Origin: Clostridia bacterium
GTDB taxonomy: Bacteria > Bacillota > Clostridia > Christensenellales > Aristaeellaceae
Assembly: GCA_017938695.1 (NCBI GenBank)
Contig: JAGBBA010000057.1
Coordinates: 506 to 64,505 of the forward strand
Direction: 5' to 3'
DNA: 64,000 nt
Made by a program: the position numbers and the translations under genes. The notes beneath the pieces are model-generated. The model was not told the DNA's origin, did not search any database, and worked only from the letters and a program-made list of their open reading frames with translations. Positions within the stretch are counted from its first letter, which is position 1, and each line of letters starts with the position of its first letter. Shown here piece by piece: positions 5,268-59,773 of the stretch.

Positions 5268-6401
5268 TTATTCGTCTGCCAGTTCTTCTTCCAGCAGGGC
5301 CAGATCGTCCTCTTCCTCCTCGGCCTGGAGCTTCATGGCAGCCTCGTCCTCGGGGGCGGGCTCAGCGAAGAGCTCCTTGCGCAGGATAGCGTCGATCTCG
5401 TCGGTGATCTCGGGGTTGTCGCGCAGGTACAGGCGGGTGTTCTCGCGGCCCTGGCCGATGCGCTGATCCTTGTAGGAGAACCACGCGCCGCTCTTGTGGA
5501 TGATGTCGCGCTCCACGGCCATATCCAGCAGGGTGCCTTCCTTGGAGATGCCCTCGCCGTACACGATATCGAACTCGGCCACGCGGAAGGGCGGAGCCAC
5601 CTTGTTCTTCACGACCTTCACCTTGGTGTGGTTGCCCACGATGGCGGTGCCGTTCTTGAGCTGCTCGCCGCGGCGCACGTCCAGGCGCACAGAGGCGTAG
5701 AACTTCAGCGCACGGCCGCCGGGAGTGGTTTCGGGGTTGCCGTACATCACGCCCACCTTTTCACGCAGCTGGTTGATGAACACCGCCACGCAGCCGGTCT
5801 TGTTGATGATACCGGCCAGCTTGCGCAGGGCCTGGCTCATCAGTCGGGCCTGCAGGCCCACGAAGCTGTCGCCCATTTCGCCGTCGATTTCCGCCTTGGG
5901 CACCAGGGCCGCCACGGAGTCGATCACCACCACGTCCAGTGCACCGGAGCGCACCAGAGCCTCGGCAATTTCCAGGGCCTGCTCGCCGGTGTCGGGCTGG
6001 GAAACATAGAGCTCGTCGATGTTCACGCCCAGCTTCTTGGCATACACGGGGTCCAGCGCGTGCTCGGCGTCCACAAAGGCCGCGATGCCGCCAGCCTTCT
6101 GGGCCTCCGCCACGATGTGCAGGGCCACAGTGGTCTTACCGGAGGATTCAGGGCCATAGATCTCCACGATACGGCCGCGGGGAATACCGCCCACGCCCAG
6201 GGCTGCGTCCAGGGTGAGGCAGCCGGTGGGGATCACCTCGATATTCTGGGTGCTGGCCTCGCCCAGCTTCATCACAGAACCCTTGCCAAACTGTTTATCC
6301 AGATCAGCCAGCGCATGCTCCAGCGCCTTGAGCTTCTCTGCCTGCGCCCCGTCCTTCACGGGTGCAGTCTTTTCGGCCTTTGCCGCTTTCTTCGTTGCCA
6401 T
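5268..6401 (-). CDS. recA: recombinase RecA
   Basis: Walker A GPESSGKT and the typical RecA core ([24 protein letters not shown]). The ATG at 6401 follows AAAGGA; the track start at 6410 is a GTG too close to the RBS. Confidence 0.97.
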
Positions 6402-6483
6402 GTTGAACACGTCCTTTCAACTCGATAGACCTATCGTATCACGGCCTGTTCGCATTTGCAAGGGGAACACGCGAAAAAAGTCG

Positions 6484-6660
6484 CTTAAGGGCTTTCAGCC
6501 CTTAAGAATCCCGACCAGAGGGATTTCATCCCTCTGGACTCCCGCTCGGGGGTGGCCGGCGTAGTGGTCTGCGGGCAGGGGTCACGGCGCGAATACGGTC
6601 GCGCCGCGACGCGGAGCATGCGGCATTTGTGGCATACGCACTCCATTATTTCTCATTCAT
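6484..6660 (+). repeat. short copy of the mosaic hairpin element (2 unit hairpins + GC-hairpin module)
   Basis: cttaagggctttcagcccttaag (6484-6506), ccagagggatttcatccctctgg (6515-6537) and ggtcacggcgcga..tcgcgccgcgacgcggagc (6579-6617). Confidence 0.75.
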
Positions 6661-6688
6661 ATTCGATTGTTCTCCTTGTGTACTTCGC

Positions 6689-6718
6689 TTGACATTCATC
6701 CTTTTCCGGGCGTATAAT
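6689..6718 (+). promoter_or_regulatory. sigma-70-type promoter for the aro leader/operon
   Basis: TTGACA (6689-6694), an 18-nt spacer, then TATAAT (6713-6718). Confidence 0.6.
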
Positions 6719-6758
6719 CCAGCCATGGATACAGATAGTATCCGCAGGAGGAAACACC

Positions 6759-6821
6759 ATGCTGCATTGCTTCTACTTTACGTTTAGCGTCCCGGGCGGC
6801 TTTGCCGTGCCGGGTGTCTGA
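6759..6821 (+). CDS. candidate 20-aa leader peptide MLHCFYFTFSVPGGFAVPGV (Phe/Tyr-rich)
   Basis: AGGAGG sits 7 nt upstream of the ATG. The FYFTF codon cluster is at 6771-6785. It lies between the promoter and the terminator, upstream of DAHP synthase. Confidence 0.4.
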   Translation: MLHCFYFTFSVPGGFAVPGV

Positions 6822-6870
6822 GCGTACCGTTGAAGCAGCACCTTTTGCTGCCGCCATCGTGCGGCACGAT

Positions 6871-6904
6871 CCGGGCGGCCTTTAACGGCCCCCGGTTTTT
6901 ATTT
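6871..6904 (+). terminator. intrinsic terminator / attenuator in the aroF leader
   Basis: ccgggcggcc-tttaac-ggcccccgg stem followed by TTTTTATTT, ending 27 nt before the aroF ATG. Confidence 0.65.
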
Positions 6905-6930
6905 GCATTCATTAAAGGAGGCAACCACCC

Positions 6931-7944
6931 ATGATTATCGTTCTGAAGCAAGGCACTTCCCAGCAGGAGATTGACAAGCTGACAAACATTATCGTCAGCA
7001 AGGGCATCAATGTGAATCCTATGTTTGGTTCCGATCTGACCATTCTGGGCCTGATCGGCGACACCAGCCAGGTCGACCCCGCCCAGATCGAGTCCTTCCG
7101 CTGCGTTGAACGCATCATGAAGGTGGCAGAGCCCTTCAAAAAGGCCAACCGTATGTTCCACCCCGGCGAGAGCGTCATCAAGGTGGGCGATACCGAGGTG
7201 GGCGGCAAGAAGCTGGCCATTATGGCAGGCCCCTGCTCGGTGGAGAGCAAGGAGCAGATCACCTATGTGGCCCAGGAGGTCAAGAAGGCCGGTGCCACCA
7301 TTCTGCGCGGCGGTGCCTTCAAGCCCCGCACCTCCCCCTATGCCTTCCAGGGCCTGAAGTACGACGGCCTTGATCTGCTGGTAGAGGCCCGCGCCGCCAC
7401 CGGCCTGCCCATTGTTACCGAGATCATGAGCCCCTACGACATCGAGATCTTCGATGAAAAGGTGGACTGCATCCAGGTGGGTGCCCGCAACATGCAGAAC
7501 TTCGACCTTCTGCGCCTGCTGGGCCAGAGCAAGAAGCCCATCCTGCTCAAGCGCGGCCTGTCCTCCACCATCGAAGAGTGGCTCATGAGTGCCGAGTACA
7601 TCATGGCCGGTGGCAACCCCAACGTGATCCTGTGCGAGCGCGGCATCCGCACCTACGAAACCTACACCCGCAACACCCTGGACCTTTCCGCCGTGCTGGC
7701 CGTGAAGCGTCTGAGCCACCTGCCGGTCATCGTTGACCCCAGCCACGCCACCGGCAAGTTCTGGATGGTGGAGCCCCTGGCCCGCGCCGCCATCGCCGTA
7801 GGTGCCGACGGCGTGATGATCGAAGTCCACAACGACCCCGCCCACGCCCTGTGCGACGGTGCCCAATCCATCAAGCCCGACCTCTTCGCCGACGTCATGA
7901 AGGACATCCGCACCATCGCCGCCTGTGTCGGCCGCGAGGCCTAA
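6931..7944 (+). CDS. aroF: 3-deoxy-7-phosphoheptulonate (DAHP) synthase, type I-beta with N-terminal regulatory domain
   Basis: AAAGGAGG RBS. KDO8P/DAHP I-beta core (AGPCSVES, RGGAFKPRTSPY, DPSHATG) preceded by an extra domain of about 65 aa. Confidence 0.92.
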   Translation: MIIVLKQGTSQQEIDKLTNIIVSKGINVNPMFGSDLTILGLIGDTSQVDPAQIESFRCVERIMKVAEPFKKANRMFHPGESVIKVGDTEVGGKKLAIMAGPCSVESKEQITYVAQEVKKAGATILRGGAFKPRTSPYAFQGLKYDGLDLLVEARAATGLPIVTEIMSPYDIEIFDEKVDCIQVGARNMQNFDLLRLLGQSKKPILLKRGLSSTIEEWLMSAEYIMAGGNPNVILCERGIRTYETYTRNTLDLSAVLAVKRLSHLPVIVDPSHATGKFWMVEPLARAAIAVGADGVMIEVHNDPAHALCDGAQSIKPDLFADVMKDIRTIAACVGREA

Positions 7945-8239
7945 GGGGACTCTGTACCCTTAGGGATCCCCTGTCAGAGGGGCTTTGCCCCTCTGGACAC
8001 CCCACGAAGGGCCTTCGGCCCTTTCGAAACCCATGCGGGGAGAGCGTTGCTTGGCGGTCTCCGAGCTGGGGTCCCGGCGCGCAACGGGCGCGCCGCGACG
8101 CGGAGCAAGGCGCAAAGCCTCCCTTGTGCAAAGGGAGGTGGCAGCCCGCAGGGCTGCCGGAGGGATTGCCTGCTGCAATTCCCCTCATGCGCCCAGCCCA
8201 CACTCCATTCCGCATTCCGAATTCCGAATTCCGAATTCT
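7941..8239 (+). repeat. long mosaic hairpin element inside the aroF-aroB intergenic region (no terminator module)
   Basis: Three unit hairpins (7941-7963, 7974-7997, 8004-8025), the GC hairpin (8071-8107), the caaagcctccc..aagggaggtggcagccc..gggctgccggagggattgcctgc module (8113-8176) and a heptamer array (8205-8239). It is collinear with the 38740-39091 copy. Confidence 0.85.
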
Positions 8240-8254
8240 TCAAGGAGGCCTTCC

Positions 8255-9325
8255 ATGCCTACCATCACCGTTTCTCTTGGGGATCGCACCTACCCTGTCC
8301 ATATTGAGTCTGGTCTTATTGATCGCGTCGGGCAACAGGCCCGCGAGGTGCTGGGCGAGTGCGCCCTGGCCATCATTACCGATGACCATGTGGCACCACT
8401 GTACCTTGCCCGTGTGGAGGCTTCGCTGGATGCTGCGGGCTTGCGGCACACCAGCATCGTGCTGCCTCACGGTGAGCCCACCAAGTGCCTGGCGCAGCTC
8501 AGCCGCCTGTATGATTTCCTGTGCGAGAGCCGCATCACCCGCAAGGATGCCATCATTGCTCTGGGCGGCGGTGTGATTGGCGATCTGGCAGGGCTGGCGG
8601 CGGCTACCTTCCTGCGGGGCATCCGGTTCATTCAGGTGCCCACCACGCTGCTGGCCCAGGTGGATTCCTCGGTGGGCGGCAAGGTGGCGGTGGATCTGCC
8701 CCAGGGCAAGAACCTGGTGGGTGCGTTCTATCAGCCTGCGGCGGTGCTGTGCGATCCCATGACGCTGAACACCCTCACTGATGATTACTGGCGTGATGGT
8801 CTGGGCGAGGTGGTGAAGTACGGCTGCATCAACGATGCTGAACTGTTTGCCCTGCTGGAGGCTTGCGCCCCCGGTGGCCGCCAGGCCCTGATGGAGCAGA
8901 TCGACACCATTCTGCAGCACTGCATCCAGGCCAAGGCTGACGTGGTGGCCCAGGACGAATGCGACATCGGCCTGCGCATGACGCTGAACTTCGGCCACAC
9001 CATTGGCCATGCGGTGGAAACCTGCCAGCACTACGATGGCTTGCGCCACGGCGAGGCGGTGGCCCTGGGCATGACGGTGATGACGCACCTCACCGAAGGC
9101 CGGGGCATGACGGCTCCCGGCACCGCAGCCCGTCTGGATGCGTTGCTTTCCGCCCTGGAAATGCCCATGCAGCTGCCGGATATTCCGGAGGATGACCTGA
9201 TCGCTGCCATGGGCATGGACAAGAAATCCGCTGGCAAAACCCTGAATGTGATCGTGCTGGACAAGATCGGCCAGTGCCGCATCCACCCAACTTCGGCAGA
9301 TTTCTTCAAAGGTATTCGTGCATAA
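8255..9325 (+). CDS. aroB: 3-dehydroquinate synthase
   Basis: AAGGAGG RBS before the ATG at 8255. GGGVIGDLAG nucleotide-binding motif and metal-ligand region NFGHTIGHA. The track ORF's N-terminal 90 aa lie in repeat DNA. Confidence 0.93.
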   Translation: MPTITVSLGDRTYPVHIESGLIDRVGQQAREVLGECALAIITDDHVAPLYLARVEASLDAAGLRHTSIVLPHGEPTKCLAQLSRLYDFLCESRITRKDAIIALGGGVIGDLAGLAAATFLRGIRFIQVPTTLLAQVDSSVGGKVAVDLPQGKNLVGAFYQPAAVLCDPMTLNTLTDDYWRDGLGEVVKYGCINDAELFALLEACAPGGRQALMEQIDTILQHCIQAKADVVAQDECDIGLRMTLNFGHTIGHAVETCQHYDGLRHGEAVALGMTVMTHLTEGRGMTAPGTAARLDALLSALEMPMQLPDIPEDDLIAAMGMDKKSAGKTLNVIVLDKIGQCRIHPTSADFFKGIRA

Positions 9326-9477: not shown

Positions 9478-10473
9478 ATGACCCAGCCTGTGGACGCCTG
9501 GCGGCTTCTTCTGTGGGAAGCCGATATGCCCCTGACCGACGACCAGCGCACTGCGCTTACATCCGCTGCGGTTCAAGCCATGCAACCCATTGGCGAAGCA
9601 TCCGCCAGCTTTGCCCCCCAGGGCGATGTGCTGACCATCTCCCTGCATCACACCCGGTTCGCCGCCGCCATCCAGCGGGACATGGCCCTGTGGCTCTGCG
9701 CCCAGAACCTGATGGAAACCGTTTCCCTCACCATGGATCAGGTGGGCACCATGTCCGTCAGCGAGGAGTTCAGCCAGGAAAGCGAAGGGAGCAGCCACCT
9801 TGCCGCCATGCAGGAGATCTCCGACTGGTGGGCAAGTGTGTCGCCCATGCCGGGCAGCCTGGCCCGCAGCCGCCGCACCCATCTGCAAACCATTATCAAA
9901 CGCCGCCAGTATACGGCCCTGGGCGGCTACGTCAGCCGGGAGCTCCGCGCCGAGCAGGAGCCCGGGCGCATGTGCTACGCCTATGTGCCGCTGGTGATCG
10001 AGGCCATCTGGAGCCAGCACGCCGATCTGTCCTTGCAGGCACTCACCGGCAGCCTGAACCTGAACGACATGGCCCGCCGCCCCAAGGATGCCCTGATGGC
10101 CTGGCTCAACGCCCTGCCTACGCTCCTGCGGCAAAGCCCCTCCGCCGCCACCGCCGCACCCATCGACCGGGTGATCGCCGGCATCCAGGCGGATTGCTCC
10201 CTGCCCTATTCCCAGCAGAACCTGAGCCGTTCTCTGGGCCTGACCCCTGCCTATTTCTGCCGCCTGTTCCATGAAAAAACCGGGCAGCACTTTTCCACCT
10301 TTCTCACCCGCACCCGCATGGAAAAAGCCCAGGAGCTCCTTTCCGACGGCCAGGAGCACAGCCTGGGCGAAGTCAGTGCTGCCTGCGGCTACCCCAACAA
10401 GAGCTACTTCTGCCAGGTGTTCAAAAAATACACCGGCCTGACCCCCGGCGAATTTGAACAACGGAAAAAGTGA
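9478..10473 (+). CDS. AraC-family transcriptional regulator
   Basis: C-terminal double HTH (LSRSLGLTPAYFCRLF ... GYPNKSYFCQVFKKYTGLTPGEF). Confidence 0.85.
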   Translation: MTQPVDAWRLLLWEADMPLTDDQRTALTSAAVQAMQPIGEASASFAPQGDVLTISLHHTRFAAAIQRDMALWLCAQNLMETVSLTMDQVGTMSVSEEFSQESEGSSHLAAMQEISDWWASVSPMPGSLARSRRTHLQTIIKRRQYTALGGYVSRELRAEQEPGRMCYAYVPLVIEAIWSQHADLSLQALTGSLNLNDMARRPKDALMAWLNALPTLLRQSPSAATAAPIDRVIAGIQADCSLPYSQQNLSRSLGLTPAYFCRLFHEKTGQHFSTFLTRTRMEKAQELLSDGQEHSLGEVSAACGYPNKSYFCQVFKKYTGLTPGEFEQRKK

Positions 10474-10596
10474 CCCCTGCAAGAAACAAAGCCTGTCTTA
10501 CGTTACAATATTGGACATGATCAGACAAGGACAGGCTGTCATGGCCTGTCCTGTTCCGCATATATTGCATTATCCATGCTCATGAGGAGGTTCCCC

Positions 10597-12342
10597 ATGC
10601 GACGATTGATCTGCCTGCTGCTTTGCCTGATGCTGCTCCCCCTGCCTGCCCTGGCGGAAGAAGAAGCCGCCTCCCCCACCATCCGGGTGCTTTTACGCCG
10701 GCTCAACCTCACCGACTGCGCTTACCTCACCCTGGACGGCCCCTACACCGTTGCCACCAAGCTGGGTGCCACGATGACCTTCCCCAAGGGCAGCGAGGTG
10801 ACGGTGAACATCCGCGGCGGCGAGCTATACCTGTTCTACCAGGGCATGAGCCTGCAAGCCGGTAAGGAAGTGCGCTTTATCCGCAACGCCTCCGAGGCCA
10901 GCGGCACCGAGGGCATCCGCTTTGCCAAGAACGGCAATTTCTACCCCGGCGACCTGAAGCTGACCATCGAAAACGGTGCGCTTTATCCGGTGATGACCCT
11001 GGCCGTGGAGGACTACCTGCTGGGCGTTGTCCCCTATGAAATGGGCGACAGCTTCCCCCTGGAGGCCCTGAAGGCCCAGGCCATCTGCGCCCGCACCTAC
11101 GCGCTGTCCCACGTGGACCCCTCCGACGCCTACGACGTGGTGGACACCACCAACGATCAGGTGTTCAAGGGCGTTGACCTGGATAGCAAGCTGTCCATCC
11201 AGGCCGTGCAGGACACCGCCGGCATCGTGGGCATGTACAAGGGCAAGCTGGCCAACTGCTATTACAGTGCCTCCAACGGCGGCCAGACCGAGCTGGTGGA
11301 AAACGTGTGGAGCGGCCGAGACCGCGGCGGCTATTTCGCCATCACCGACGACCCCTTCGACCTGGAGAACCCTGCCAGCGTGGTGCGCCGCGCGAAGCTG
11401 AACAAAAACGGTCAGGACATCCCGGCGGATTTCAATGCGGTGCTGTCCAGCTACATGGCGGATAAACTGATCAAGCACGGCTTTGAGCCCCTGCCCAAGG
11501 CCTTCCGCATTGACGAGATCAAGTCCGTTTCCCTGGCAGGCACCAAGTTTGATCCCCCCAGCCGCTTTGTGGACGAGATGACCATCACCTTCACCTGGTC
11601 GGGCAAAAAGCTGCTGACCTGGTATGACGGCCAGGAGGACAGCGACGAGGAGATCTCCCTGTTCTCTGCCACGCCGGTACCCACCGAGACCCCCGAACCC
11701 ACCGCAGAGCCGGAGATCACCCCTGAGCCCCAGCCGGTGTACAGCGACTTCATCCCCGTGGAGGAAGAGGCTACCGTCACCCTGCCCATTTTCCCCGAGG
11801 TGATCCGAGCACTGGGGCTGTCCATTTCCGGCAGCGACAATGAGATGCTCACCCTGGTGGAGACCGACGACGCCTTCACCCTGGAGGCCCGCCGCTTCGG
11901 CCACGGCGTGGGCATGAGCCAGCGCGGTGCCCAGTGGATGGCCGCCGCCTACGGCAAGCAGTATCATGAAATTCTGGCCTTCTACTATCCCGGCATGGAG
12001 CTGGCCAAGTTGGCCGCTGGCGAGCTGCCCCTGCCCACCACCCAGCCCGAGCTGGCCCAAACGCCGCCTCCCCCGGCCACGCCCACGCCCCGGCCCACCC
12101 TGATGCCCGTGACCACGTCCATCCCCCAGGGGGCCTACCTGGCCAGCGTGGAAGGCATCGACGATGATTCCAGCCTGAACCTGCGCCAGGAGCCCAGTCT
12201 GGCCTCGGAAATCCTGATGCGGCTGTACAAGCATCAGCAGCTGATCGTGCTGGAAACCGCCGAAGACCCGGCCTGGGTCAAGGTGAAGACCGACGTGATC
12301 GAGGGCTATGTGATGCTCAGCTATCTGGAAAAGGTGAAATAA
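10597..12342 (+). CDS. SpoIID/LytB-domain protein with C-terminal SH3-like domain, secreted
   Basis: GAGGAGG RBS and a signal peptide. SpoIID motifs (LKAQAICARTYAL, YSASNGGQTE, GHGVGMSQRGA). Pro/Thr-rich linkers. The C-terminus resembles SH3b. Confidence 0.85.
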   Translation: MRRLICLLLCLMLLPLPALAEEEAASPTIRVLLRRLNLTDCAYLTLDGPYTVATKLGATMTFPKGSEVTVNIRGGELYLFYQGMSLQAGKEVRFIRNASEASGTEGIRFAKNGNFYPGDLKLTIENGALYPVMTLAVEDYLLGVVPYEMGDSFPLEALKAQAICARTYALSHVDPSDAYDVVDTTNDQVFKGVDLDSKLSIQAVQDTAGIVGMYKGKLANCYYSASNGGQTELVENVWSGRDRGGYFAITDDPFDLENPASVVRRAKLNKNGQDIPADFNAVLSSYMADKLIKHGFEPLPKAFRIDEIKSVSLAGTKFDPPSRFVDEMTITFTWSGKKLLTWYDGQEDSDEEISLFSATPVPTETPEPTAEPEITPEPQPVYSDFIPVEEEATVTLPIFPEVIRALGLSISGSDNEMLTLVETDDAFTLEARRFGHGVGMSQRGAQWMAAAYGKQYHEILAFYYPGMELAKLAAGELPLPTTQPELAQTPPPPATPTPRPTLMPVTTSIPQGAYLASVEGIDDDSSLNLRQEPSLASEILMRLYKHQQLIVLETAEDPAWVKVKTDVIEGYVMLSYLEKVK

Positions 12343-38742: not shown

Positions 38743-39091
38743 GGGGCTCTGCCCCTTAACCCCGCCAAAGGGGCCTTGCCCCTTTGGAAACCCCACCAGA
38801 GGGCTCTGCCCTCTGGACTCCGCGAAGGGCCATTCGGCCCTCTCGACACCCATCCTGTGTGAGCATACAGGGTGGGTTTTCCTTTGGGGTCACGGCGCGC
38901 AACGGGCGCGCCGCGACGCAGGATAAGAGCAAAGCCTCCCTTGTGCAAAGGGAGGTGGCAGCCCGAAGGGCTGACGGAGGGATTGCCTGCCGCATCCCCC
39001 AACACGCCGCATTTATAAAATGTAGGAGCAAACTGCGTTCGCCCAGTCCACATTCTAAATTCCGCATTCCGAATTCCTAATTCCTAATTTT
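38740..39091 (+). repeat. full-length mosaic hairpin element (archetype copy)
   Basis: Four unit hairpins (38740-38759, 38765-38787, 38797-38817, 38823-38845), a terminator module (38847-38884), the GC hairpin (38888-38919), the cctccctt/aagggagg + ggcagccc modules with GGAGGGATTGCCTGC (38930-38990) and a heptamer array (39057-39091). Confidence 0.9.
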
Positions 39092-43324: not shown

Positions 43325-43590
43325 ATACGCGTAAACCACATACGCAATGCAGTGATTGAGACACACGCGCTTCCACAGCGCCCCCAGAGAAATGCCGGTT
43401 GGTGCGAGGCATGGCAAGCATGGAAGACCAGCGTATCCCTCATGAGCAGTCCGCTGAATCTGCGCTTTCATGCAGGGTAGGCCAGACCGTTATCTTCACG
43501 TTACAGAAGAGCACATTCGTCCTGAGTGACTGATGTGGCTGAGCAGGCCGCAAACAATGCGGCAACAGGAGTGGTATCGCGGGAAATACA

Positions 43591-43637
43591 AACCCGTCTC
43601 CTTTCGATCCTTCAGGTCGGATGGGGACGGGTTTTTT
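43591..43637 (+). terminator. intrinsic terminator inside the cstA 5' leader
   Basis: 11-bp stem aacccgtctcc/ggggacgggtt (one G-U pair) followed by T6, ending 90 nt before the cstA ATG. Confidence 0.7.
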
Positions 43638-43727
43638 GATATACAGCGCACTTTCCCCGGCAGAGGCATCCGCGGAGCCATGCTGAGAAAAACACGCAAA
43701 CGATCATACAGAAAGGATGTCCTGAAA

Positions 43728-45407
43728 ATGAACGGAATCACCATTATGCTGATCGCCCTCGCCGTGCTGGGGGCAGGTTACCTTCTCTATGGCCGCTGGC
43801 TGGCCAAGACCTGGGGCATCGATCCCAAGGCCAAGACCCCTGCCTATGAAATGGAGGACGGCGTGGACTATACGCCCACTGCCCCTGGTGTGGTGTTTGG
43901 TCACCAGTTTGCCTCCATTGCCGGAGCGGGTCCCATCAACGGCCCCATTCAGGCAGCCATCTTCGGCTGGGTGCCGGTGCTTTTGTGGGTGCTGATCGGC
44001 GGCCTGTTCTTCGGCGCCGTGCAGGACTTTGTGGCCATGTACGCCTCTGTGAGAAACAAGGGCCGCACCATCGGCTATATTATCGAGCTGTATATCGGCA
44101 AGATCGGCAAAAAGCTCTTCACCCTGTTTGTCTGGCTCTTCTCCATCCTGGTGGTGGCTGCCTTTGCTGATGTGGTAGCCAATACCTTCAACGGCTTTGC
44201 CGCGACCCCCGAGGTCTCCCTGGCCAATGGTCAGGTGGCTACCACCTCCATGCTGTTTATTGCTGCAGCTGTCACGCTGGGCGTGGTGCTGAAGGTGTGC
44301 CGCTTCAAGCCGCTGGTGAACACCGCCATCGCGGTGGGTCTGCTGGTTTTGTGCATTGTGCTGGGCATGGTGCTGCCCATGTATGTGCCCACCGGCACCT
44401 GGCACCTGATCGTGTTTGTGTACATTGCTGTTGCCTCCATTGTGCCTGTATGGGCGCTGCTCCAGCCCCGTGACTATCTGAACAGCTACCTGCTGGTAGC
44501 CATGATCGTGGCGGCTGTGCTGGGCGTGCTGGTAGCCAATCCCCAGATGAACCTGAACGCCTTCAACGGCTTTACGGTCAACGGTCAGCATATGTTCCCC
44601 ATCCTGTTTGTGACCATCGCCTGCGGCGCGGTATCCGGCTTCCATTCGCTGGTGTCCTCCGGCACCGCCTCCAAGCAGGTGCAGAATGAGAAGCACATGC
44701 TGCCCATCTCCTTCGGCTCCATGCTGCTGGAAAGCTTGCTGGCCGTGATTGCCCTGATCGCCGTGGGCGCTGTGTCCAGCGGCGCGCAGGTAGCCTCCGG
44801 TACCCCTGCGGTGGTCTTTGCCTCCGCCATCTCTGGCTTCCTGGGCAAGGTGGGCATCCCCCAGGATGTGGCCTTCACGCTGATCAACCTGTCCGTCTCC
44901 GCCTTCGCCCTCACCTCGCTGGACTCTGTTGCCCGTGTGGGTCGCCTGGCCTTCCAGGAGTTCTTCCTGGACTCCACCGATGACGAGGAGAACATGAGCC
45001 CCGTGAAAAAGTTCCTCACCAACAAGTACACCGCCACCGTGGCTACGCTGGTGATGGCCTATGCCCTTGCCAAGGCTGGCTATGCCAACATCTGGCCCCT
45101 GTTCGGCTCGGCCAACCAGCTGCTGAGCGCCCTGGCGCTGATCGCCTGCGCCGTGTTCCTCAAGCGCACCAACCGCAAGGGCTGGATGCTGTGGGCACCC
45201 ATGGCCATCATGCTGGCTGTGACCCTGACCGCTCTGGGCATGACCATCTTTGGCAAGTTCGGCGGCATCTTTGCCGGCACCACCGCCAATCTGGGCGGCG
45301 ACCTGCTGCAGGGCAGCTTTGCCGTTGCGCTGTTCGTGCTGGGCGTGATCGTTGCCGTGCAGGGCGTGAAGAAGCTCTTCGGCAAGGAAGAATCCGTGCA
45401 GGCGTGA
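43728..45407 (+). CDS. cstA: carbon starvation protein A (peptide/pyruvate transporter family)
   Basis: Typical CstA N-terminus (YLLYGRWLAKTWGIDP, HQFASIAGAGPINGP) and a multi-TM body. Start at MNGITIM after AAAGGA. Confidence 0.93.
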   Translation: MNGITIMLIALAVLGAGYLLYGRWLAKTWGIDPKAKTPAYEMEDGVDYTPTAPGVVFGHQFASIAGAGPINGPIQAAIFGWVPVLLWVLIGGLFFGAVQDFVAMYASVRNKGRTIGYIIELYIGKIGKKLFTLFVWLFSILVVAAFADVVANTFNGFAATPEVSLANGQVATTSMLFIAAAVTLGVVLKVCRFKPLVNTAIAVGLLVLCIVLGMVLPMYVPTGTWHLIVFVYIAVASIVPVWALLQPRDYLNSYLLVAMIVAAVLGVLVANPQMNLNAFNGFTVNGQHMFPILFVTIACGAVSGFHSLVSSGTASKQVQNEKHMLPISFGSMLLESLLAVIALIAVGAVSSGAQVASGTPAVVFASAISGFLGKVGIPQDVAFTLINLSVSAFALTSLDSVARVGRLAFQEFFLDSTDDEENMSPVKKFLTNKYTATVATLVMAYALAKAGYANIWPLFGSANQLLSALALIACAVFLKRTNRKGWMLWAPMAIMLAVTLTALGMTIFGKFGGIFAGTTANLGGDLLQGSFAVALFVLGVIVAVQGVKKLFGKEESVQA

Positions 45408-46157: not shown

Positions 46158-46763
46158 ATGTTTATCTATGAAAAAGAGCTGCAATATCCCGTGCGCATCC
46201 GCAAGCCGGATCAGCGCATGGCCTCAGTGATCATCAGCCAGTACGGCGGCCCCGACGGCGAGCTGGGTGCCTCCCTGCGCTACCTGAGCCAGCGGTACTC
46301 CATGCCCTACAACGAGCTCAAGGGTCTGCTGACGGACATCGGCACCGAGGAGCTGGGACATCTGGAGATGGTGGGCAGCATGATCCACCAGCTGACCCGC
46401 GACCTGAGCGACAGCCAGATCCAGGACAGCGCCTTCGCCCCCTACTTCACCGATCACGGTCTGGGCGTCTATCCCCAGTTTGCCAGCGGTCAGCCCTACC
46501 ACGCCGCCGCCATGGCCGTCAAGGGCGACCCCCTCACCGATCTGCACGAAGACCTGGCAGCCGAGCAGAAGGCCCGCACCACCTACGAAAACCTGATCCA
46601 CCTGTGCGACGACCCGGACGTGAAGGACGTTCTGCGCTTCCTGCGGGCCCGGGAGATCGTGCACTACCAGCGTTTTGCCGAGGCCCTTGCCATGGTGCAG
46701 GATCGCCTGGACGAAAAGAACTTCTACGCTTTCAACCCCGCCTTCCAGTGCGGATGCAAGTAA
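46158..46763 (+). CDS. cotJC: spore coat protein CotJC (manganese-catalase family)
   Basis: QYGGPDGELGASLRYLSQRY and EELGHLEM di-metal motifs. Follows the cotJA/B gene after a 3-nt gap. Confidence 0.88.
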   Translation: MFIYEKELQYPVRIRKPDQRMASVIISQYGGPDGELGASLRYLSQRYSMPYNELKGLLTDIGTEELGHLEMVGSMIHQLTRDLSDSQIQDSAFAPYFTDHGLGVYPQFASGQPYHAAAMAVKGDPLTDLHEDLAAEQKARTTYENLIHLCDDPDVKDVLRFLRAREIVHYQRFAEALAMVQDRLDEKNFYAFNPAFQCGCK

Positions 46764-46823
46764 TGCCATCAGAAAACGCCGCAGCCCTTCACGGGTTGCG
46801 GCTTCGTTGTGCTTTTGGGGGTG

Positions 46824-52943: not shown

Positions 52944-53245
52944 AGAAGAAACACCGCGGGCAATGCAGCAGGCAATCCCTCCGGCTTCGCTGCGCTCAGC
53001 CACCTCCCTTTGCACAAGGGAGGCTTTGCGTCTTGCCCTCAATTCGGCATTGTCGCGGTGCACCCGTTGCGCGCCGTGACCCCTGCAAAGGAAAAACCCA
53101 CGCTGCTCTCGCAAAGTGGGTTTCGAAAGGGCCGAACGGCCCTTCGTGGGGTGGAGGGGCAACGCCCCTCCCGGGAGTCCAGAGGGCAGAGCCCTCTGGC
53201 GGGTGTGCAGAGGGCAGAGCCCTTTGCCAGGGGCAAAGCACCTGG
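52944..53245 (-). repeat. full-length mosaic hairpin element, inverted orientation, abutting the dnaA stop
   Basis: The reverse complement is collinear with 38740-39091: five unit hairpins, a terminator module (aaacccac..gtgggttttt), the GC hairpin, the cctccctt/aagggagg module and GGAGGGATTGCCTGC. There is no heptamer array. Confidence 0.85.
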
Positions 53246-58299: not shown

Positions 58300-58567
58300 A
58301 ATATCATCAAAGGCGACGACGGAGACAATGCCGGAGCCAAGGCTGGCCTAAGAGAGGGACGCACATGGTGCAAGCGTCCTGACGAGCCTTCCGGAAATTC
58401 CCTCCTGAGCTGCGCAGCGGAACGGGCTTTGGCCTCAGTAGGTTGCGACGGGTCGGCCCCGTAATCGGCATCGAGCATATCGCAGGAGCATTCCTGCCGT
58501 ATGGAATCAGGGTGGTAACACGCGGCAATTCGCCTTCGTCCCTTTCGCGGACGAGGGTTTTTTATTT
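58300..58567 (+). promoter_or_regulatory. T-box riboswitch leader (Phe)
   Basis: AGAGAG and GGTGCAA stem-I elements. TTC triplets at 58389-91 and 58398-400. T-box sequence AATCAGGGTGGTAACACGCGG (58504-58524). Terminator ..cgtccctttcgcggacgaggg + T6. Confidence 0.85.
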
Positions 58568-58595
58568 GCTGACACACAGAAAGGAAGGTTTGACT

Positions 58596-59618
58596 ATGAA
58601 GGAAAAGATCGCGCAGATTGAACAGCTGCTCGTAAGCGAGCTGGCGATGTGCGAAAACATGCAGGCCCTGGACGCCCTGCGCGTGAAGGTGCTGGGCAAG
58701 AAGGGCGAATTGACCGCCCTTTTGCGCGGCATGGGCCAGCTCTCCCCCGAGGAGCGTCCCGCCGCCGGCCAGATGATCAACGAGGCCCGTGAGAAGTTCA
58801 CCGCCATGCTGGAAGAAAAGCAGGCCCTGCTGAAGAAAAAGGCCCAGGAGGAAGCCCTCCAGCGCGAGACCATCGACGTGACCCAGCCCGCCGCTGCCCC
58901 CAAGGCTGGCTGCGTGCACCCCATGACCCTGGTGCTCAACGAAGTCATCGACTGCTTCACCGGCATGGGCTTCGAAGTGGTGGAAGGCCCCGAAGTGGAG
59001 CTGGATCACTACAACTTTGAACTGATGAACATCCCCAAGAATCACCCTGCCCGCGACGCGCAGGACACCTTCTATGTGGATGACAACATCGTGCTGCGCA
59101 CCCACACCAGCCCTGTGCAGGCCCGCACCATGCTCACCCGCAAGCCCCCCATCCGCGTTATCTGCCCCGGCCGCGTGTATCGTGCCGACGAGATGGATGC
59201 CACCCACAGCCCCGTCTTCCACCAGATGGAAGGCCTGGTCATCGACAAGGACGTGACCATGGCTGATCTGCGCGGCACCCTGAATGCCTTCGCCGAGCGG
59301 TTGTACGGCAAGGGTATCACCACCCGTTTCCGCCCCAGCTTCTTCCCCTTCACCGAGCCCTCCGCTGAGGTGGACCTGACCTGCGTGGCCTGCCACGGCA
59401 AGGGCTGCCGCGTGTGCAAGGGCACCGGCTGGATCGAGGTGCTGGGCTGCGGCATGGTCAACCCCCACGTGCTGGAAATGTGCGGCATCGACCCCAACGA
59501 GTACTCCGGCTTCGCCTTCGGCATCGGCATCGAGCGCATCACCATGCAGCGTTACGGCATCCCCGACCTGCGCCTCCTCTTCGAAGGCGACGTTCGTTTC
59601 CTGGGCCAGTTCCGCTGA
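58596..59618 (+). CDS. pheS: phenylalanine--tRNA ligase alpha subunit
   Basis: Class II aaRS motifs (FELMNIPKNHPARD, GRVYR, GFAFGIGIERI). Start at MKEKIAQ after GAAAGGAAGG. Confidence 0.96.
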   Translation: MKEKIAQIEQLLVSELAMCENMQALDALRVKVLGKKGELTALLRGMGQLSPEERPAAGQMINEAREKFTAMLEEKQALLKKKAQEEALQRETIDVTQPAAAPKAGCVHPMTLVLNEVIDCFTGMGFEVVEGPEVELDHYNFELMNIPKNHPARDAQDTFYVDDNIVLRTHTSPVQARTMLTRKPPIRVICPGRVYRADEMDATHSPVFHQMEGLVIDKDVTMADLRGTLNAFAERLYGKGITTRFRPSFFPFTEPSAEVDLTCVACHGKGCRVCKGTGWIEVLGCGMVNPHVLEMCGIDPNEYSGFAFGIGIERITMQRYGIPDLRLLFEGDVRFLGQFR

Positions 59619-59624
59619 GTTACG

Positions 59625-59706
59625 CCAGAGGCTCTGCCTCTGGACTCCGCCAAAGGGCTCTGCCCTTTGGAATCCCGCTTAAGGGTCTTCGACCCTTAAG
59701 AATCCC
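59625..59706 (+). repeat. three unit hairpins of the mosaic family between pheS and pheT
   Basis: ccagaggctctgcctctgg, ccaaagggctctgccctttgg and cttaagggtcttcgacccttaag, each followed by an RAHYCC tail. No T-run. Confidence 0.85.
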
Positions 59707-59773
59707 ATTCTGCGATGTTGCGCTTCGGTTCCCTTGGAATTGATTGCGCATGGAACATAAAGGAGGCGTACCG

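What the first reader, a model, noticed from the sequence alone, without database searches (positions are those of the whole stretch)
6759..6904. Candidate ribosome-mediated attenuator: Phe/Tyr-rich leader peptide upstream of DAHP synthase
A consensus-like promoter (6689-6718) is followed by AGGAGG-N7-ATG and a 20-codon ORF, MLHCFYFTFSVPGGFAVPGV. The ORF has an FYFTF cluster.

Next come two small hairpins and an intrinsic terminator (6871-6904), then the aroF RBS.

The segment GCCGTGCCGGG (6804-6814) lies near the leader stop codon. It can pair either with CCCGGGCGGC (6791-6800) or with the 5' terminator arm CCGGGCGGCC (6871-6880). That gives the classic 1:2 / 2:3 / 3:4 attenuation topology.

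Aromatic-codon leader peptides are textbook for enterobacterial pheA and pheST. In Firmicutes, amino-acid operons are usually T-box controlled, and pheS in this same window is. A peptide attenuator on aroF-aroB would therefore be unusual here.
Basis: partly seen in the sequence, partly recalled or inferred. Interest (0 to 1): 0.65.

Follow-up and report, generated by a model that had tools for sequence, protein, structure and literature searches.

The report
Aromatic-codon leader peptide attenuator of aroF
A 20-codon Phe/Tyr-rich mini-gene and three mutually exclusive RNA hairpins in front of the first shikimate-pathway gene (aroF) most likely form a classical ribosome-sensing transcription attenuator; the design is conserved across many gut Clostridia but is a new example of a well-known mechanism.

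Summary
There is a perfect TTGACA-N18-TATAAT promoter, AGGAGG-N7-ATG, the ORF MLHCFYFTFSVPGGFAVPGV (6759-6821), a bulged GC hairpin with a U-tract (6871-6904), then aroF-aroB.

Comparative evidence supports the attenuator reading.
- 66 of 80 orthologous aroF loci (Christensenellales-like MAGs, Anaerotruncus, Marasmitruncus, Clostridium) carry an SD+ATG mini-ORF rich in Phe/Tyr(/Trp), followed by a terminator.
- In 42 unique relatives of the window type, leader hairpin 1:2 plus the terminator are 90% paired, with 16 pairs changed on both sides.
- A conserved antiterminator is 88% paired, against at most 61% for slid controls. It joins the ORF end and the following bases (window 6827-6835) to the terminator loop and inner stem (6880-6888).
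- Partial-transcript folding puts the antiterminator in place only when a ribosome is parked on the aromatic codons.

Nothing here is experimental. The mechanism class is textbook. aroF leader peptides are already known in Corynebacterium (aroR) and predicted in Acholeplasma. This is a new member of a known kind, of moderate interest.

The parts
6689..6718 (+). Promoter: -35 TTGACA (6689-6694), 18-nt spacer, -10 TATAAT (6713-6718). Predicted start of transcription is near 6725.
   Evidence: 12/12 consensus match. An equally good TTGACA-N16-18-TATAAT lies 19-60 nt upstream of the leader ATG in 58 of 65 leader-bearing aroF loci.
6727..6743 (+). P0: small 5' hairpin GGAUAC-AGAUA-GUAUCC between the transcription start and the SD. 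Its role is unknown; a 5'-end stabiliser is my guess.
   Evidence: Present in every fold. By eye, hairpins of different sequence sit at the same place in relatives, e.g. L005, L021, L027, L038, L041. Not tested formally.
6746..6751 (+). Shine-Dalgarno AGGAGG of the leader ORF, 7 nt before the ATG.
   Evidence: GGAGG-like SDs precede the leader ATG in nearly all relatives, and the ATG is an invariant alignment column.
6759..6821 (+). Leader ORF, 20 codons plus UGA: MLHCFYFTFSVPGGFAVPGV.
   Evidence: Across 42 unique relatives there are 0 in-frame stops between the ATG and the apical hairpin, against 12 and 4 in the other two frames, and no indels over the first 12 codons.
6771..6785 (+). Regulatory codons UUC UAC UUU ACG UUU (F5 Y6 F7 T8 F9). 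This is the predicted stall site when Phe-tRNA (and Tyr-tRNA) charging is low.
   Evidence: The F-x-F core is the most conserved part of the ORF (TTT at columns 45-47 is invariant). Leaders are 21.8% aromatic against 6.9% in seven genes of the window.
6763..6790 (+). Segment 1: 5' arm of the long leader hairpin; contains the aromatic codons.
   Evidence: MFE pairs 6763-6790 with 6815-6840. The equivalent helix in the alignment is 86% paired, with 7 pairs changed on both sides.
6791..6814 (+). Apical GC hairpin CCCGGGCGGC-UUU-GCCGuGCCGGG, followed by a U-rich stretch. It is a candidate RNA-polymerase pause hairpin (inference).
   Evidence: CCCGG/CCGGG is nearly invariant (98% paired). The pause role is inferred from analogy with the trp and his leaders (own knowledge).
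6815..6840 (+). Segment 2: 3' arm of the leader hairpin. It includes the stop codon UGA (6819-6821) and the conserved antiterminator strand CCGUUGAAG (6827-6835).
6841..6848 (+). CCUUUUGC, which pairs with the SD region 6744-6751 in the full-length fold (a possible anti-SD closing the whole leader ORF).
   Evidence: SD-to-spacer complementarity in relatives is suggestive only (mean z -0.66; 9 of 41 with z below -1.5).
6849..6866 (+). Spacer hairpin B (UGCCGC-CAUCGU-GCGGCA). Variable in relatives. Its 5' arm, 6850-6855, can also pair with 6874-6879.
   Evidence: This region is not alignable across relatives.
6874..6888 (+). Segment 3: terminator 5' arm, loop and first two bases of the 3' arm. 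The core CUUUAACGG (6880-6888) pairs with 6827-6835 to form the antiterminator.
   Evidence: Conserved CUCUUUGCGG / CUUUACGG in the terminator loops of relatives. 88.3% paired against at most 61% in slid controls; 0/500 shuffles reach the observed value. It forms in partial-transcript folds only when a ribosome sits on the aromatic codons.
6871..6904 (+). Intrinsic terminator (3:4): stem 6871-6880 / 6887-6895 with bulged C6876, loop UUUAAC, U-tract UUUUUAUUU 6896-6904.
   Evidence: Alignment helix is 90% paired, with 8 of 10 pairs changed on both sides.
6931..7944 (+). aroF: DAHP synthase (type I-beta, with an N-terminal ferredoxin-like regulatory domain). This is the regulated gene.
   Evidence: Pfam DAHP_synth_1 4e-79 and DAHP_snth_FXD 1e-20.
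8255..9325 (+). aroB: 3-dehydroquinate synthase, second gene of the unit. The true start is ATG 8255 (MPTITVSLGD), not the TTG at 7985.
   Evidence: aroB follows aroF directly in metagenomic relative L085.

Best explanation
This is a ribosome-mediated (leader-peptide) transcription attenuator that sets aroF-aroB expression according to the supply of charged tRNA-Phe, and probably tRNA-Tyr.

Proposed sequence of events:
1. A strong constitutive promoter starts transcription near 6725.
2. A ribosome loads at AGGAGG/AUG (6746-6761) and translates the 20-codon leader.
3. If Phe-tRNA and Tyr-tRNA are plentiful, the ribosome runs to UGA (6819-6821). There it covers the first two-thirds of CCGUUGAAG (6827-6835), so the terminator 6871-6895 plus U-tract forms and transcription stops near 6900.
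4. If no ribosome loads, segment 1 (6763-6790) pairs with segment 2 (6815-6840), and the terminator also forms.
5. If charged tRNA-Phe/Tyr is scarce, the ribosome stalls on UUC-UAC-UUU-ACG-UUU (6771-6785) and covers segment 1. Segment 2 is left free, and its core pairs with CUUUAACGG (6880-6888) as soon as that emerges. In this lineage 6804-6814 may also pair with 6870-6879. The terminator stem cannot nucleate, and RNA polymerase reads through into aroF-aroB.

Shown here: the sequence elements, their conservation, covariation in all three helices, and the dependence of the predicted fold on ribosome position.

Inferred: that the ORF is translated, that stalling occurs at these codons, that termination happens at the U-tract, and that the decision is kinetic. 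At equilibrium the terminator always wins.
For: (1) Conservation of the ORF as an ORF.
- 66 of 80 aroF loci have an SD+ATG mini-ORF rich in F/Y/W upstream of aroF. 52 were found by covariance model R1 (11 of them not in its seed). 14 of a second sequence type were found by inspection.
- The ATG is invariant. There are no indels in the first 12 codons although codons 2-6 are highly variable. In-frame stops number 0, against 12 and 4 in the other frames.
- The variable codons 2-6 are 19.5% aromatic in frame, against 3.3% and 13.3% out of frame.

(2) At least two poorly alignable sequence types share the same logic.
- The window type has the core xYFTFTFP.
- The Anaerotruncus/Marasmitruncus/Clostridium type reads KQNRFYGFFSWGFFFSTGF and scores only 16-17 bits with R1.
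- The Egerieenecus form and the L058/L073/L078 forms are detectable divergent relatives of the window type (23-45 bits).
- All have aromatic codons in or next to the 5' arm of a hairpin, plus an ORF-end sequence complementary to the terminator: GAUGAGU:ACUCAUU, AAAUGAGC:GCUCAUUU, GAGAAGAGU:GCUCUUUUC.

(3) Structure.
- Helix 1:2 plus the terminator are 89.9% paired against at most 50% when slid, with 16 pairs changed on both sides.
- The antiterminator 2:3 is 88.3% paired against at most 61%, with 5 pairs changed on both sides; 0/500 shuffles reach it.
- Matched insertions occur in the window clade: CCGUUGAAG:CUUUAACGG against CCGUAAAG:CUUUGCGG elsewhere.

(4) Ribosome-position modelling on transcripts ending at 6888-6890.
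- With the A site on F5, Y6 or F7, 15 nt of segment 3 pair upstream, including the 9-bp antiterminator, at both transcript ends. For F9 this holds at 6888 but not at 6890.
- With no ribosome, or a ribosome at the stop codon, 3-6 nt pair upstream and there is no antiterminator.
- Across 42 leaders, segment 3 sequestration is 0.69 (aromatic stall), 0.30 (stop) and 0.42 (no ribosome). Stall exceeds stop in 39 of 42.

(5) Specificity.
- R1 gives one significant hit per locus, always just upstream of aroF.
- A motif-first metagenome scan gave 2 genuine hits, both upstream of aroF.
- No other such ORF exists in the window.

(6) Codon detail.
- The wobble base of the first conserved Phe codon covaries with the middle base of the paired UAA/UGA: TTT:TAA 21, TTC:TGA 5, TTT:TGA 2, TTC:TAA 1. 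Both coding meanings and the base pair are kept.
- The leader uses codons that are rare in this genome (TTT, ACG, CCG against TTC 79%, ACC 85%, CCC 76%).

(7) Functional logic. The pathway's products are Phe, Tyr and Trp. C. glutamicum uses the same design (AroR, Phe-Tyr-Phe) on aroF.
Against: - There are no experimental data: no Ribo-seq, Term-seq or reporter.
- Conservation in the core is at the nucleotide level, with no three-base periodicity (mean entropy 0.39/0.45/0.49 for codon positions 1/2/3). The Phe codons could therefore be conserved because they pair with AAA/AAG of segment 2, not because they are read.
- At equilibrium the terminator forms whatever the ribosome position, so the model needs kinetic control. 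That is usual for attenuators but unproven here.
- Duplex energies of 2:3 are only modestly better than mononucleotide shuffles (mean z -1.2).
- The 42 sequences are related, so cell counts overstate independent events. The TTC:TGA covariation may be a single event.
- The conserved antiterminator occupies the loop and inner stem. In the window the outer 5-bp CCGGG:CCCGG stem could still form.
- The leader SD is paired in the full-length MFE fold.
Confidence: 0.8

Rival explanations
1. Same attenuator, but with the first reader's antiterminator. GCCGUGCCGGG (6804-6814) switches between CCCGGGCGGC (6791-6800) and the terminator 5' arm CCGGGCGGCC (6871-6880), and this is the regulatory 2:3 helix.
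For: The complementarity is real in the window. 6792-6800 and 6871-6879 are identical 9-mers. One partial-transcript fold, with the ribosome at F9 and the transcript ending at 6890, uses 6809-6814 with 6871-6876. It could add to the conserved helix and give a long composite antiterminator covering 6870-6888.
Against: It is not conserved: 55.1% paired across 42 leaders against 45-52% for slid controls, and 103/500 shuffles reach the number of double-change pairs. L001 and L013, whose aroF products are 97% identical to the window's, have a different 5' arm (GGGAAGGC / CAGGGAGGC) that cannot pair with it. A ribosome stalled at F5-F7 does not reach the apical hairpin, so 6804-6814 stays paired with 6791-6800.
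Confidence: 0.2
2. A translation-independent RNA switch. The conserved leader would bind a protein, a tRNA or a small molecule that selects between terminator and antiterminator, and the ORF would be a by-product of the conserved sequence.
For: Core conservation is at the nucleotide level without codon periodicity. The apical CCCGG/CCGGG hairpin is almost invariant in sequence, more than pairing alone requires. Unclassified cis-elements upstream of aro operons exist in Lactobacillales.
Against: No Rfam family matches the leader even at E up to 10; T-boxes are found elsewhere in the window but not here. The invariant ATG with a GGAGG-type SD, the absence of in-frame stops, and aromatic enrichment in the variable, unpaired codons 2-6 are not expected of a non-coding switch. 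A sequence type barely detectable by the window-type model (type B) is again aromatic-rich in the frame that starts at SD+ATG. All conserved blocks are accounted for by the three helices, leaving no orphan conserved loops typical of aptamers.
Confidence: 0.08
3. The mini-ORF acts through its peptide. Either it is a nascent-chain arrest peptide (F-x-F-x-F-P) that senses free amino acid in the exit tunnel, as TnaC does, or it is a functional hydrophobic micropeptide.
For: Pro12 after the Phe cluster is nearly invariant (CCG/CCC at columns 54-56). The peptides are hydrophobic.
Against: Peptide sequence outside the base-paired core is not conserved, and the C-terminal frame differs between clades. 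The stop codon falls at 9 different alignment columns. Types A and B share composition only. A stall induced by high free Phe would raise expression of a biosynthetic gene when product is abundant, which is the wrong sign (own reasoning).
Confidence: 0.04
4. No regulation. The hairpins are a structured 5' UTR or a leaky constitutive terminator, and the aromatic ORF is a coincidence.
For: One such ORF per 64-kb window is not far from the 0.3 expected by chance. At equilibrium the terminator always forms.
Against: The ORF, the terminator and a covarying antiterminator are conserved across orders of Clostridia, specifically upstream of aroF.
Confidence: 0.03

Closest known systems
Corynebacterium glutamicum aroR-aroF attenuator (Neshat et al. 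2014, as summarised in PMC11802643)
   Same: [quoted passage not shown] Ribosome stalling under Phe limitation raises transcription. The window's leader also reads F-Y-F(-T-F).
   Different: Actinobacterium against Clostridia. No sequence relationship was tested here. The window element has its own conserved RNA core (UUUACGUUUACGUUCCCGG ... CGUAAAG ... CUUUGCGG). Independent origin is likely.
uORFC-13-1 motif upstream of aroF in Acholeplasma and environmental sequences (Brewer et al. 2021, PMC8632094)
   Same: Predicted promoter, RBS, start codon, a U-run encoding Phe and an adjacent intrinsic terminator, exclusively upstream of aroF, in a Firmicutes-related lineage.
   Different: Described from 24 AT-rich Acholeplasma or environmental sequences, with 'at least one' Phe codon. 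Its alignment was not available, so identity or overlap with the Clostridia types, especially the AT-rich Clostridium type B, could not be checked.
Enterobacterial pheA (pheL) and pheST leaders; E. coli trp leader
   Same: SD plus short ORF with tandem regulatory codons, 1:2 / 2:3 / 3:4 alternative helices, a stop codon placed so that a terminating ribosome masks segment 2, and an antiterminator weaker than the terminator (own knowledge; pheL in PMC3082878).
   Different: No match to Rfam Phe_leader or Trp_leader. The aromatic codons alternate with Thr/Ala codons rather than forming a run. The antiterminator's 3' strand is the terminator loop and inner stem rather than mainly the 5' arm. The target is the common pathway, not the Phe branch.
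Other Firmicutes leader-peptide attenuators: His leaders of hisS/hisZ paralogues in bacilli (PMC2965389), the Leu-rich attenuator peptide of S. aureus ilv-leu (PMC5794164), and the Lactococcus leu/phe leader (Rfam; from memory)
   Same: They show that ribosome-mediated attenuation coexists with T-boxes in Firmicutes. The window likewise has T-box-like leaders on pheST and cstA.
   Different: Different amino acids, genes and sequences. None is reported for Clostridia aroF in the literature I could search.

Membership tests
Ribosome-mediated (leader-peptide) transcription attenuators | Short ORF with its own SD and start codon inside the 5' leader of a biosynthetic operon | tested here: met
   AGGAGG-N7-ATG and a 20-codon ORF at 6746-6821. 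SD and an invariant ATG are conserved in 42 unique relatives.
Ribosome-mediated (leader-peptide) transcription attenuators | Cluster of codons for the amino acid(s) made by the regulated pathway | tested here: met
   F5 Y6 F7 T8 F9 in the window. The F-x-F(-x-F) core is conserved. Leaders are 21.8% aromatic against 6.9% in genes of the window. Type B leaders also carry Trp.
Ribosome-mediated (leader-peptide) transcription attenuators | Intrinsic terminator between the leader ORF and the first structural gene | tested here: met
   6871-6904. The stem is 90% paired with 8 of 10 pairs changed on both sides across relatives, followed by a U-tract.
Ribosome-mediated (leader-peptide) transcription attenuators | Mutually exclusive 1:2, 2:3 (antiterminator) and 3:4 helices, with segment 1 overlapping the regulatory codons | tested here: met
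1:2 is 86% paired, 2:3 is 88.3% paired (slid controls at most 61%), and 3:4 is 90% paired.
Ribosome-mediated (leader-peptide) transcription attenuators | Geometry: a ribosome at the regulatory codons frees segment 2, and a ribosome at the stop codon masks it | tested here: met
   Constrained folding of partial transcripts for the window and for 42 relatives: 39 of 42 show more antiterminator with an aromatic stall than with a ribosome at the stop. This is a model, not a measurement.
Ribosome-mediated (leader-peptide) transcription attenuators | The leader is translated, and read-through responds to the charging level of the cognate tRNA | not testable with these tools
   Needs Ribo-seq, Term-seq, reporters or in vitro coupled transcription-translation.
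Rfam leader families (Phe_leader, Trp_leader, leu/phe leader and others) | Match to the family covariance model | tested here: not met
   No Rfam family reaches gathering score in the window. At E up to 10 on 6400-7000 there are only four spurious hits, none a leader family. No hits on the leaders of 20 related loci either.
T-box leaders | Match to the T-box model (specifier loop, T-box sequence, antiterminator bulge) | tested here: not met
   No T-box match at 6400-7000 even at E up to 10. The same search settings find T-boxes at 43343-43604 and 58307-58546.
uORFC-13-1 motif (aroF uORF, Acholeplasma) | Sequence and structure consensus of the published motif | not testable with these tools
   The alignment is not in the held supplement. 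Only the verbal description could be compared. It works alike; membership is unknown.
C. glutamicum aroR leader | Homology to the aroR leader sequence and structure | not tested
   The sequence was not at hand. Only the functional description was compared.

The most novel reading that the evidence does not exclude
The window element would be one member of an uncatalogued family of aromatic-codon attenuators that spans several orders of Clostridia and has taken the regulatory place upstream of aroF at the entry to the shikimate pathway.
- In its Trp-containing form (KQNRFYGFFSWGFFFSTGF in Anaerotruncus, Marasmitruncus and Clostridium), a single leader would read Phe, Tyr and Trp charging at once.
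- The near-invariant CCCGG/CCGGG hairpin plus U-rich tract would act as an RNA-polymerase pause that synchronises the first ribosome.
- The SD/anti-SD closure would limit the leader to one round of translation.
- The RNA would be dual-coded to the point that a Phe wobble base covaries with the stop codon's middle base.
Probability: 0.3. Interest if true: 0.55.

Novelty: new member of a known kind. Interest (0 to 1): 0.45.

Why it matters
It fills a gap in how gut and rumen Clostridia, most of them uncultured, control entry into aromatic amino acid synthesis. The control is a translation-coupled attenuator on aroF-aroB, working alongside a T-box-like leader upstream of pheST in the same genome.

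It offers a compact, well-defined Phe/Tyr-responsive part of about 180 nt, with a consensus promoter, that could serve as a biosensor in Gram-positive anaerobes.

It also provides a covariance model for annotating these leaders. They are absent from Rfam 15, and their ORFs of 20-40 codons fall below typical gene-calling length cut-offs.

Cultured carriers of the sister type would make the prediction testable: Anaerotruncus colihominis DSM 17241, Marasmitruncus massiliensis and Clostridium chromiireducens DSM 23318. The mechanism itself is textbook, so the conceptual gain is modest.

Tried and rejected
1. Equilibrium folding of the full leader with a ribosome footprint masked at each codon. The terminator forms with probability at least 0.986 at every position, so this test cannot discriminate. 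I replaced it with partial-transcript folding.
2. RNAalifold on the MAFFT alignment recovered only the apical helix and the terminator. The 1:2 and 2:3 helices had to be specified by hand and tested with pair counts.
3. Codon-position entropy shows no three-base periodicity. The ORF is not under ordinary protein-level selection, so I did not use that argument.
4. Frame-preserving loop indels of 15/12/9/6 nt appear in rows whose stop lies in the segment 2 core. I judged this partly circular, because those rows are selected for being in frame, and give it little weight.
5. The SD/anti-SD long-range pairing was inconclusive (mean z -0.66).
6. Duplex energy of 2:3 against shuffles gave only mean z -1.2. 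The case rests on position and covariation, not on energy.
7. The metagenome scan with the 19-nt core pattern returned 103 stretches. Only 2 of the 80 listed are real leaders by the covariance model. Of the other 78, 76 do not match the model and 2 match it only partially (L113, L155: 23.8 bits, not followed up); about 100 chance matches are expected from the pattern's information content.
8. The supplement of PMC8632094 did not hold the uORFC-13-1 alignment.
9. The overlapping ORF MDTDSIRRRKHHAALLLLYV (ATG 6725) has no SD, lies at the predicted transcription start and is not conserved in L003, so I rejected it.
10. A weak second R1 hit in the window at 46678-46808 (13.8 bits, E 0.18) was treated as chance.
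Full report
**Observation.** The region reads as the first-stage reader described it.
- TTGACA (6689-6694), 18 nt, TATAAT (6713-6718): a 12/12 promoter match.
- AGGAGG (6746-6751), 7 nt, ATG 6759.
- A 20-codon ORF, MLHCFYFTFSVPGGFAVPGV, ending at UGA 6819-6821.
- A GC-rich hairpin with one bulged C (6871-6895), followed by UUUUUAUUU (6896-6904).
- GGAGG (6917-6921) and the ATG of a 337-aa protein at 6931.

That protein is a DAHP synthase of the I-beta type with the N-terminal ferredoxin-like domain (Pfam 4e-79 and 1e-20). 3-Dehydroquinate synthase follows; its real start is ATG 8255. recA lies upstream on the other strand (5268-6410). The 211-nt leader folds much better than shuffles (-91.3 kcal/mol, z = -5.5). 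Rfam has nothing for this leader, even at E up to 10. An SD-preceded short ORF with at least 4 aromatic residues in 8 occurs only once in the 64-kb window, against 0.3 expected per window. The single occurrence proves little, but its location does matter.

**Source organism and relatives.** The aroF protein retrieved 80 loci from the species-representative genome collection.
- The closest (97-89% identity) are 'Clostridia', 'Aristaeellaceae' and Christensenellales MAGs from ruminant and other guts.
- More distant ones include Anaerotruncus, Marasmitruncus, 'Candidatus Egerieenecus', Christensenellaceae and two Clostridium species.

**The mini-ORF is conserved.** Listing short ORFs in the 300 nt upstream of each aroF gave an aromatic-rich ORF, preceded by a GGAGG-type SD, in most loci. 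Four sequence types appear.
- A, the window type, with the core x-Y/S-F-T/A-F-T-F/I-P. Examples: MLYSVSFTFTFPVSF..., MMFAVLFTFTFPAF..., MLHSSYFAFTFPAAF...
- B, KQNRFYGFFSWGFFFSTGF, in Anaerotruncus and Marasmitruncus, and MQKFYSFFYFTFWGFYFSAGY in Clostridium chromiireducens and Clostridium sp. LS.
- C, MKGALYFTFTSRSSFFSGFGFF, in Egerieenecus.
- D, ...FTGLFSFMGRSGYRFGY.

In an alignment of 42 unique type A leaders (A1):
- The ATG is invariant.
- There is no indel in the first 12 codons, although codons 2-6 are almost unconserved.
- There is no in-frame stop, against 12 and 4 stops in the other two frames.
- Codons 2-6 are 19.5% aromatic in frame, against 3.3% and 13.3% out of frame.

Leaders overall are 21.8% F/Y/W, against 6.9% in seven genes of the window. 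A perfect or near-perfect TTGACA-N16-18-TATAAT lies 19-60 nt upstream of the leader ATG in 58 of 65 loci. The ORF therefore sits at the very 5' end of the transcript.

**RNA structure.** In the window the MFE fold has these elements.
- A small 5' hairpin (6727-6743).
- One long hairpin that folds the ORF on itself. Segment 1 (6763-6790, holding the aromatic codons) pairs with segment 2 (6815-6840, holding the stop codon). It is capped by a GC hairpin (6791-6814) and closed by the SD region (6744-6751) pairing with 6841-6848.
- A spacer hairpin (6849-6866).
- The terminator.

Relatives fold the same way. Their terminator loops are unexpectedly conserved, as CUCUUUGCGG or CUUUACGG. That sequence repeats the CUUUACG of the Phe-Thr codons and is complementary to the end of the ORF ((A)CCGUAAAG, which often contains the stop codon).

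Pair counts on A1:
- 1:2 plus terminator: 89.9% of cells paired, at most 50% when the partner is slid by 1-3 columns. 16 pairs have changes on both sides, and 0/500 shuffles reach the observed value.
- Antiterminator 2:3 (columns 90-97 with 163-172): 88.3% paired against at most 61% slid. 5 pairs have changes on both sides, and 0/500 shuffles reach the percentage or the covariation score.

In the window this helix is CCGUUGAAG (6827-6835) with CUUUAACGG (6880-6888). It is one base pair longer on both strands than the CCGUAAAG:CUUUGCGG of most relatives, which is a matched insertion. It may add to the antiterminator in the window and in L002/L003, but it is not the conserved switch.

**Dependence on ribosome position.** Equilibrium folding of the complete leader always gives the terminator. 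The same holds for the E. coli trp leader, whose 3:4 helix is also more stable than 2:3 (own knowledge). I therefore folded transcripts ending at 6888-6890, just before the terminator's 3' arm is complete, using only the RNA 3' of a footprint that reaches 12 nt past the A-site codon.
- With the A site on F5, Y6 or F7, 15 nt of 6874-6888 pair upstream, including the 9-bp antiterminator. The same holds for F9 at transcript end 6888.
- With no ribosome, or with the ribosome at UGA, only 3-6 nt do, and the antiterminator is absent.
- Repeating this on all 42 leaders gave mean sequestration of 0.69 (aromatic stall), 0.30 (stop) and 0.42 (no ribosome). The stall value exceeded the stop value in 39 of 42.

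**Coding against RNA constraints.** The conserved core is conserved at the nucleotide level, and entropy shows no codon periodicity. The peptide sequence as such is not selected, which is normal for leader peptides. What is conserved:
- The start.
- The frame through the aromatic codons.
- The Phe codons. TTT at columns 45-47 is invariant, while the intervening Thr position varies (T/A/S/M/R/K).
- A stop that falls within about 12 nt before, or a few nt into, the segment 2 core in 39 of 42 rows.

The wobble base of the first conserved Phe codon covaries with the middle base of the paired UAA/UGA triplet: TTT:TAA 21, TTC:TGA 5, TTT:TGA 2, TTC:TAA 1. This may be one evolutionary event. The leader uses TTT, ACG and CCG, whereas the window's genes prefer TTC (79%), ACC (85%) and CCC (76%). 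This fits either pairing constraints or slow decoding.

**Distribution and specificity.** A covariance model built from A1 (R1) found exactly one significant hit per locus, always immediately upstream of aroF, in 52 of 80 loci plus the window.
- 11 of these loci were not in the seed.
- Types C and D score 23-45 bits. Type B is marginal (16-17 bits, E 0.02-0.05).
- Type B leaders (14 loci) share the logic. The aromatic run follows a 5' strand (AAACAGAAUCGA) that pairs with GAUUGUGUUUG, and the ORF end (GAUGAGU or AAUGAGU) is complementary to the terminator 5' arm ACUCAUU.
- The 14 loci without a leader are mostly Christensenellaceae. None of the four scanned (L053, L055, L063, L072) has an Rfam element next to aroF.
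- A motif-first scan of metagenome contigs gave mostly chance matches, as the pattern's information content predicts. The two genuine hits are both upstream of aroF, and one is followed directly by aroB.
- No second copy or similar ORF exists in the window.

**Comparison with what is known.** The mechanism class is textbook. The closest functional precedents are these.
- The C. glutamicum aroR-aroF attenuator. Its leader peptide carries Phe-Tyr-Phe and responds to Phe limitation.
- The uORFC-13-1 motif, predicted upstream of aroF in Acholeplasma.
- Leader peptides in Firmicutes: His in bacilli and a Leu-rich peptide in S. aureus.

The window element matches no Rfam leader family and no T-box. 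I found no description of a Clostridia aroF leader peptide in five full-text searches. I could not compare it with the uORFC-13-1 alignment. I therefore file it as a new member of a known kind. The same genome has T-box-like leaders upstream of pheST and cstA, so both ways of reading tRNA charging may coexist there.

**Rivals.**
- A non-coding protein- or ligand-binding switch is hard to reconcile with the invariant SD and ATG, the stop avoidance, the aromatic enrichment in unpaired variable codons, and a type B that the window-type model barely detects yet is again aromatic-rich.
- A peptide-acting arrest or micropeptide model is disfavoured by the lack of peptide conservation and by the regulatory sign.
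- A non-regulatory structure is disfavoured by the conserved, covarying antiterminator.

**Limits.** Everything rests on sequence analysis. The 42 sequences are related, so counts of cells are not counts of events. The footprint model is crude. In the window the outer 5 bp of the terminator could form despite the conserved antiterminator. The pause role of the apical hairpin, and the SD/anti-SD closure, are conjectures.

Noticed in passing
window 6488-6512, 6519-6543, 7978-8002, 8008-8032, 38769-38793, 38827-38851, 53118-53142(-), 53173-53197(-), 59682-59706: There is an interspersed family of hairpin modules of about 25-30 nt, AGGGnnTTnnnCCCTnnnGAnnCCC, often in tandem pairs in intergenic spacers (9 matches against 0.19 expected). 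The copies on either side of aroF also share CGCGCCGCGACGCGGAGCA (6600 and 8089), which makes a composite repeat of about 140 nt. They look like REP/MITE-type elements.
   Followed up: partly
window 7945-8254: The non-coding gap between aroF and aroB is 310 nt, largely made of the repeat above plus an ATTCCGA-type tandem at 8207-8234. In metagenomic relative L085 aroB starts about 40 nt after aroF, so the spacer looks like an insertion. The listed ORF 7985-9325 (TTG) over-extends aroB; the real start is ATG 8255.
   Followed up: partly
window 58307-58546 (+) and 43343-43604 (+): Two full-length T-box matches score below Rfam's gathering score (70-71 bits against 93) but have E about 1e-13. One is upstream of pheS-pheT (58590-62167). 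The other is upstream of a CstA-family carbon-starvation/peptide transporter gene (43650-45407), a less usual T-box target. Specifier codons were not examined.
   Followed up: partly
window 6506-6484 (- strand): The scan flagged a terminator-like hairpin on the minus strand between the aroF promoter and the recA start (6410). It coincides with one of the REP-like modules, so it is probably not a recA leader element.
   Followed up: no
window 6727-6743; same position in L005, L010, L021, L027, L034, L038, L041: A small hairpin of varying sequence lies between the -10 box and the leader SD in many relatives. By eye it covaries. It may be a 5'-end stabiliser. It was not tested formally.
   Followed up: no
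L056 2257-2451 (Anaerotruncus colihominis DSM 17241, NZ_CP102255.1), L048 2256-2448 (Marasmitruncus massiliensis), L076 125-327 (Clostridium chromiireducens DSM 23318), L080 2268-2464: A second, barely related aromatic leader type upstream of aroF contains Trp as well as Phe and Tyr (e.g. KQNRFYGFFSWGFFFSTGF). It has its own conserved terminator (AACUCAUUGACGCAAUGGGUU) and an ORF end complementary to it. These carriers are cultured strains, so they are suitable for experiments.
   Followed up: partly
L053-L055, L057, L059, L063, L065, L068, L069, L071, L072, L074, L075, L079 (upstream of aroF): 14 of 80 aroF loci, mostly Christensenellaceae, have no aromatic leader ORF and no hit to model R1. 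Four of them were scanned with Rfam, and none has a family next to aroF (the T-box in L072 lies about 1.9 kb upstream). How aroF is regulated in these loci is open.
   Followed up: no
window 6759-6821 compared with genes of the window: The leader is built from codons that are rare in this 60% GC genome: TTT, ACG and CCG, where the genes use TTC 79%, ACC 85% and CCC 76%.
   Followed up: yes
window 9478-10473: An AraC-family regulator (HTH_18) is encoded about 150 nt downstream of aroB on the same strand, followed by a SpoIID/SH3 protein (10576-12342). Whether it belongs to the aroF-aroB unit was not examined.
   Followed up: no
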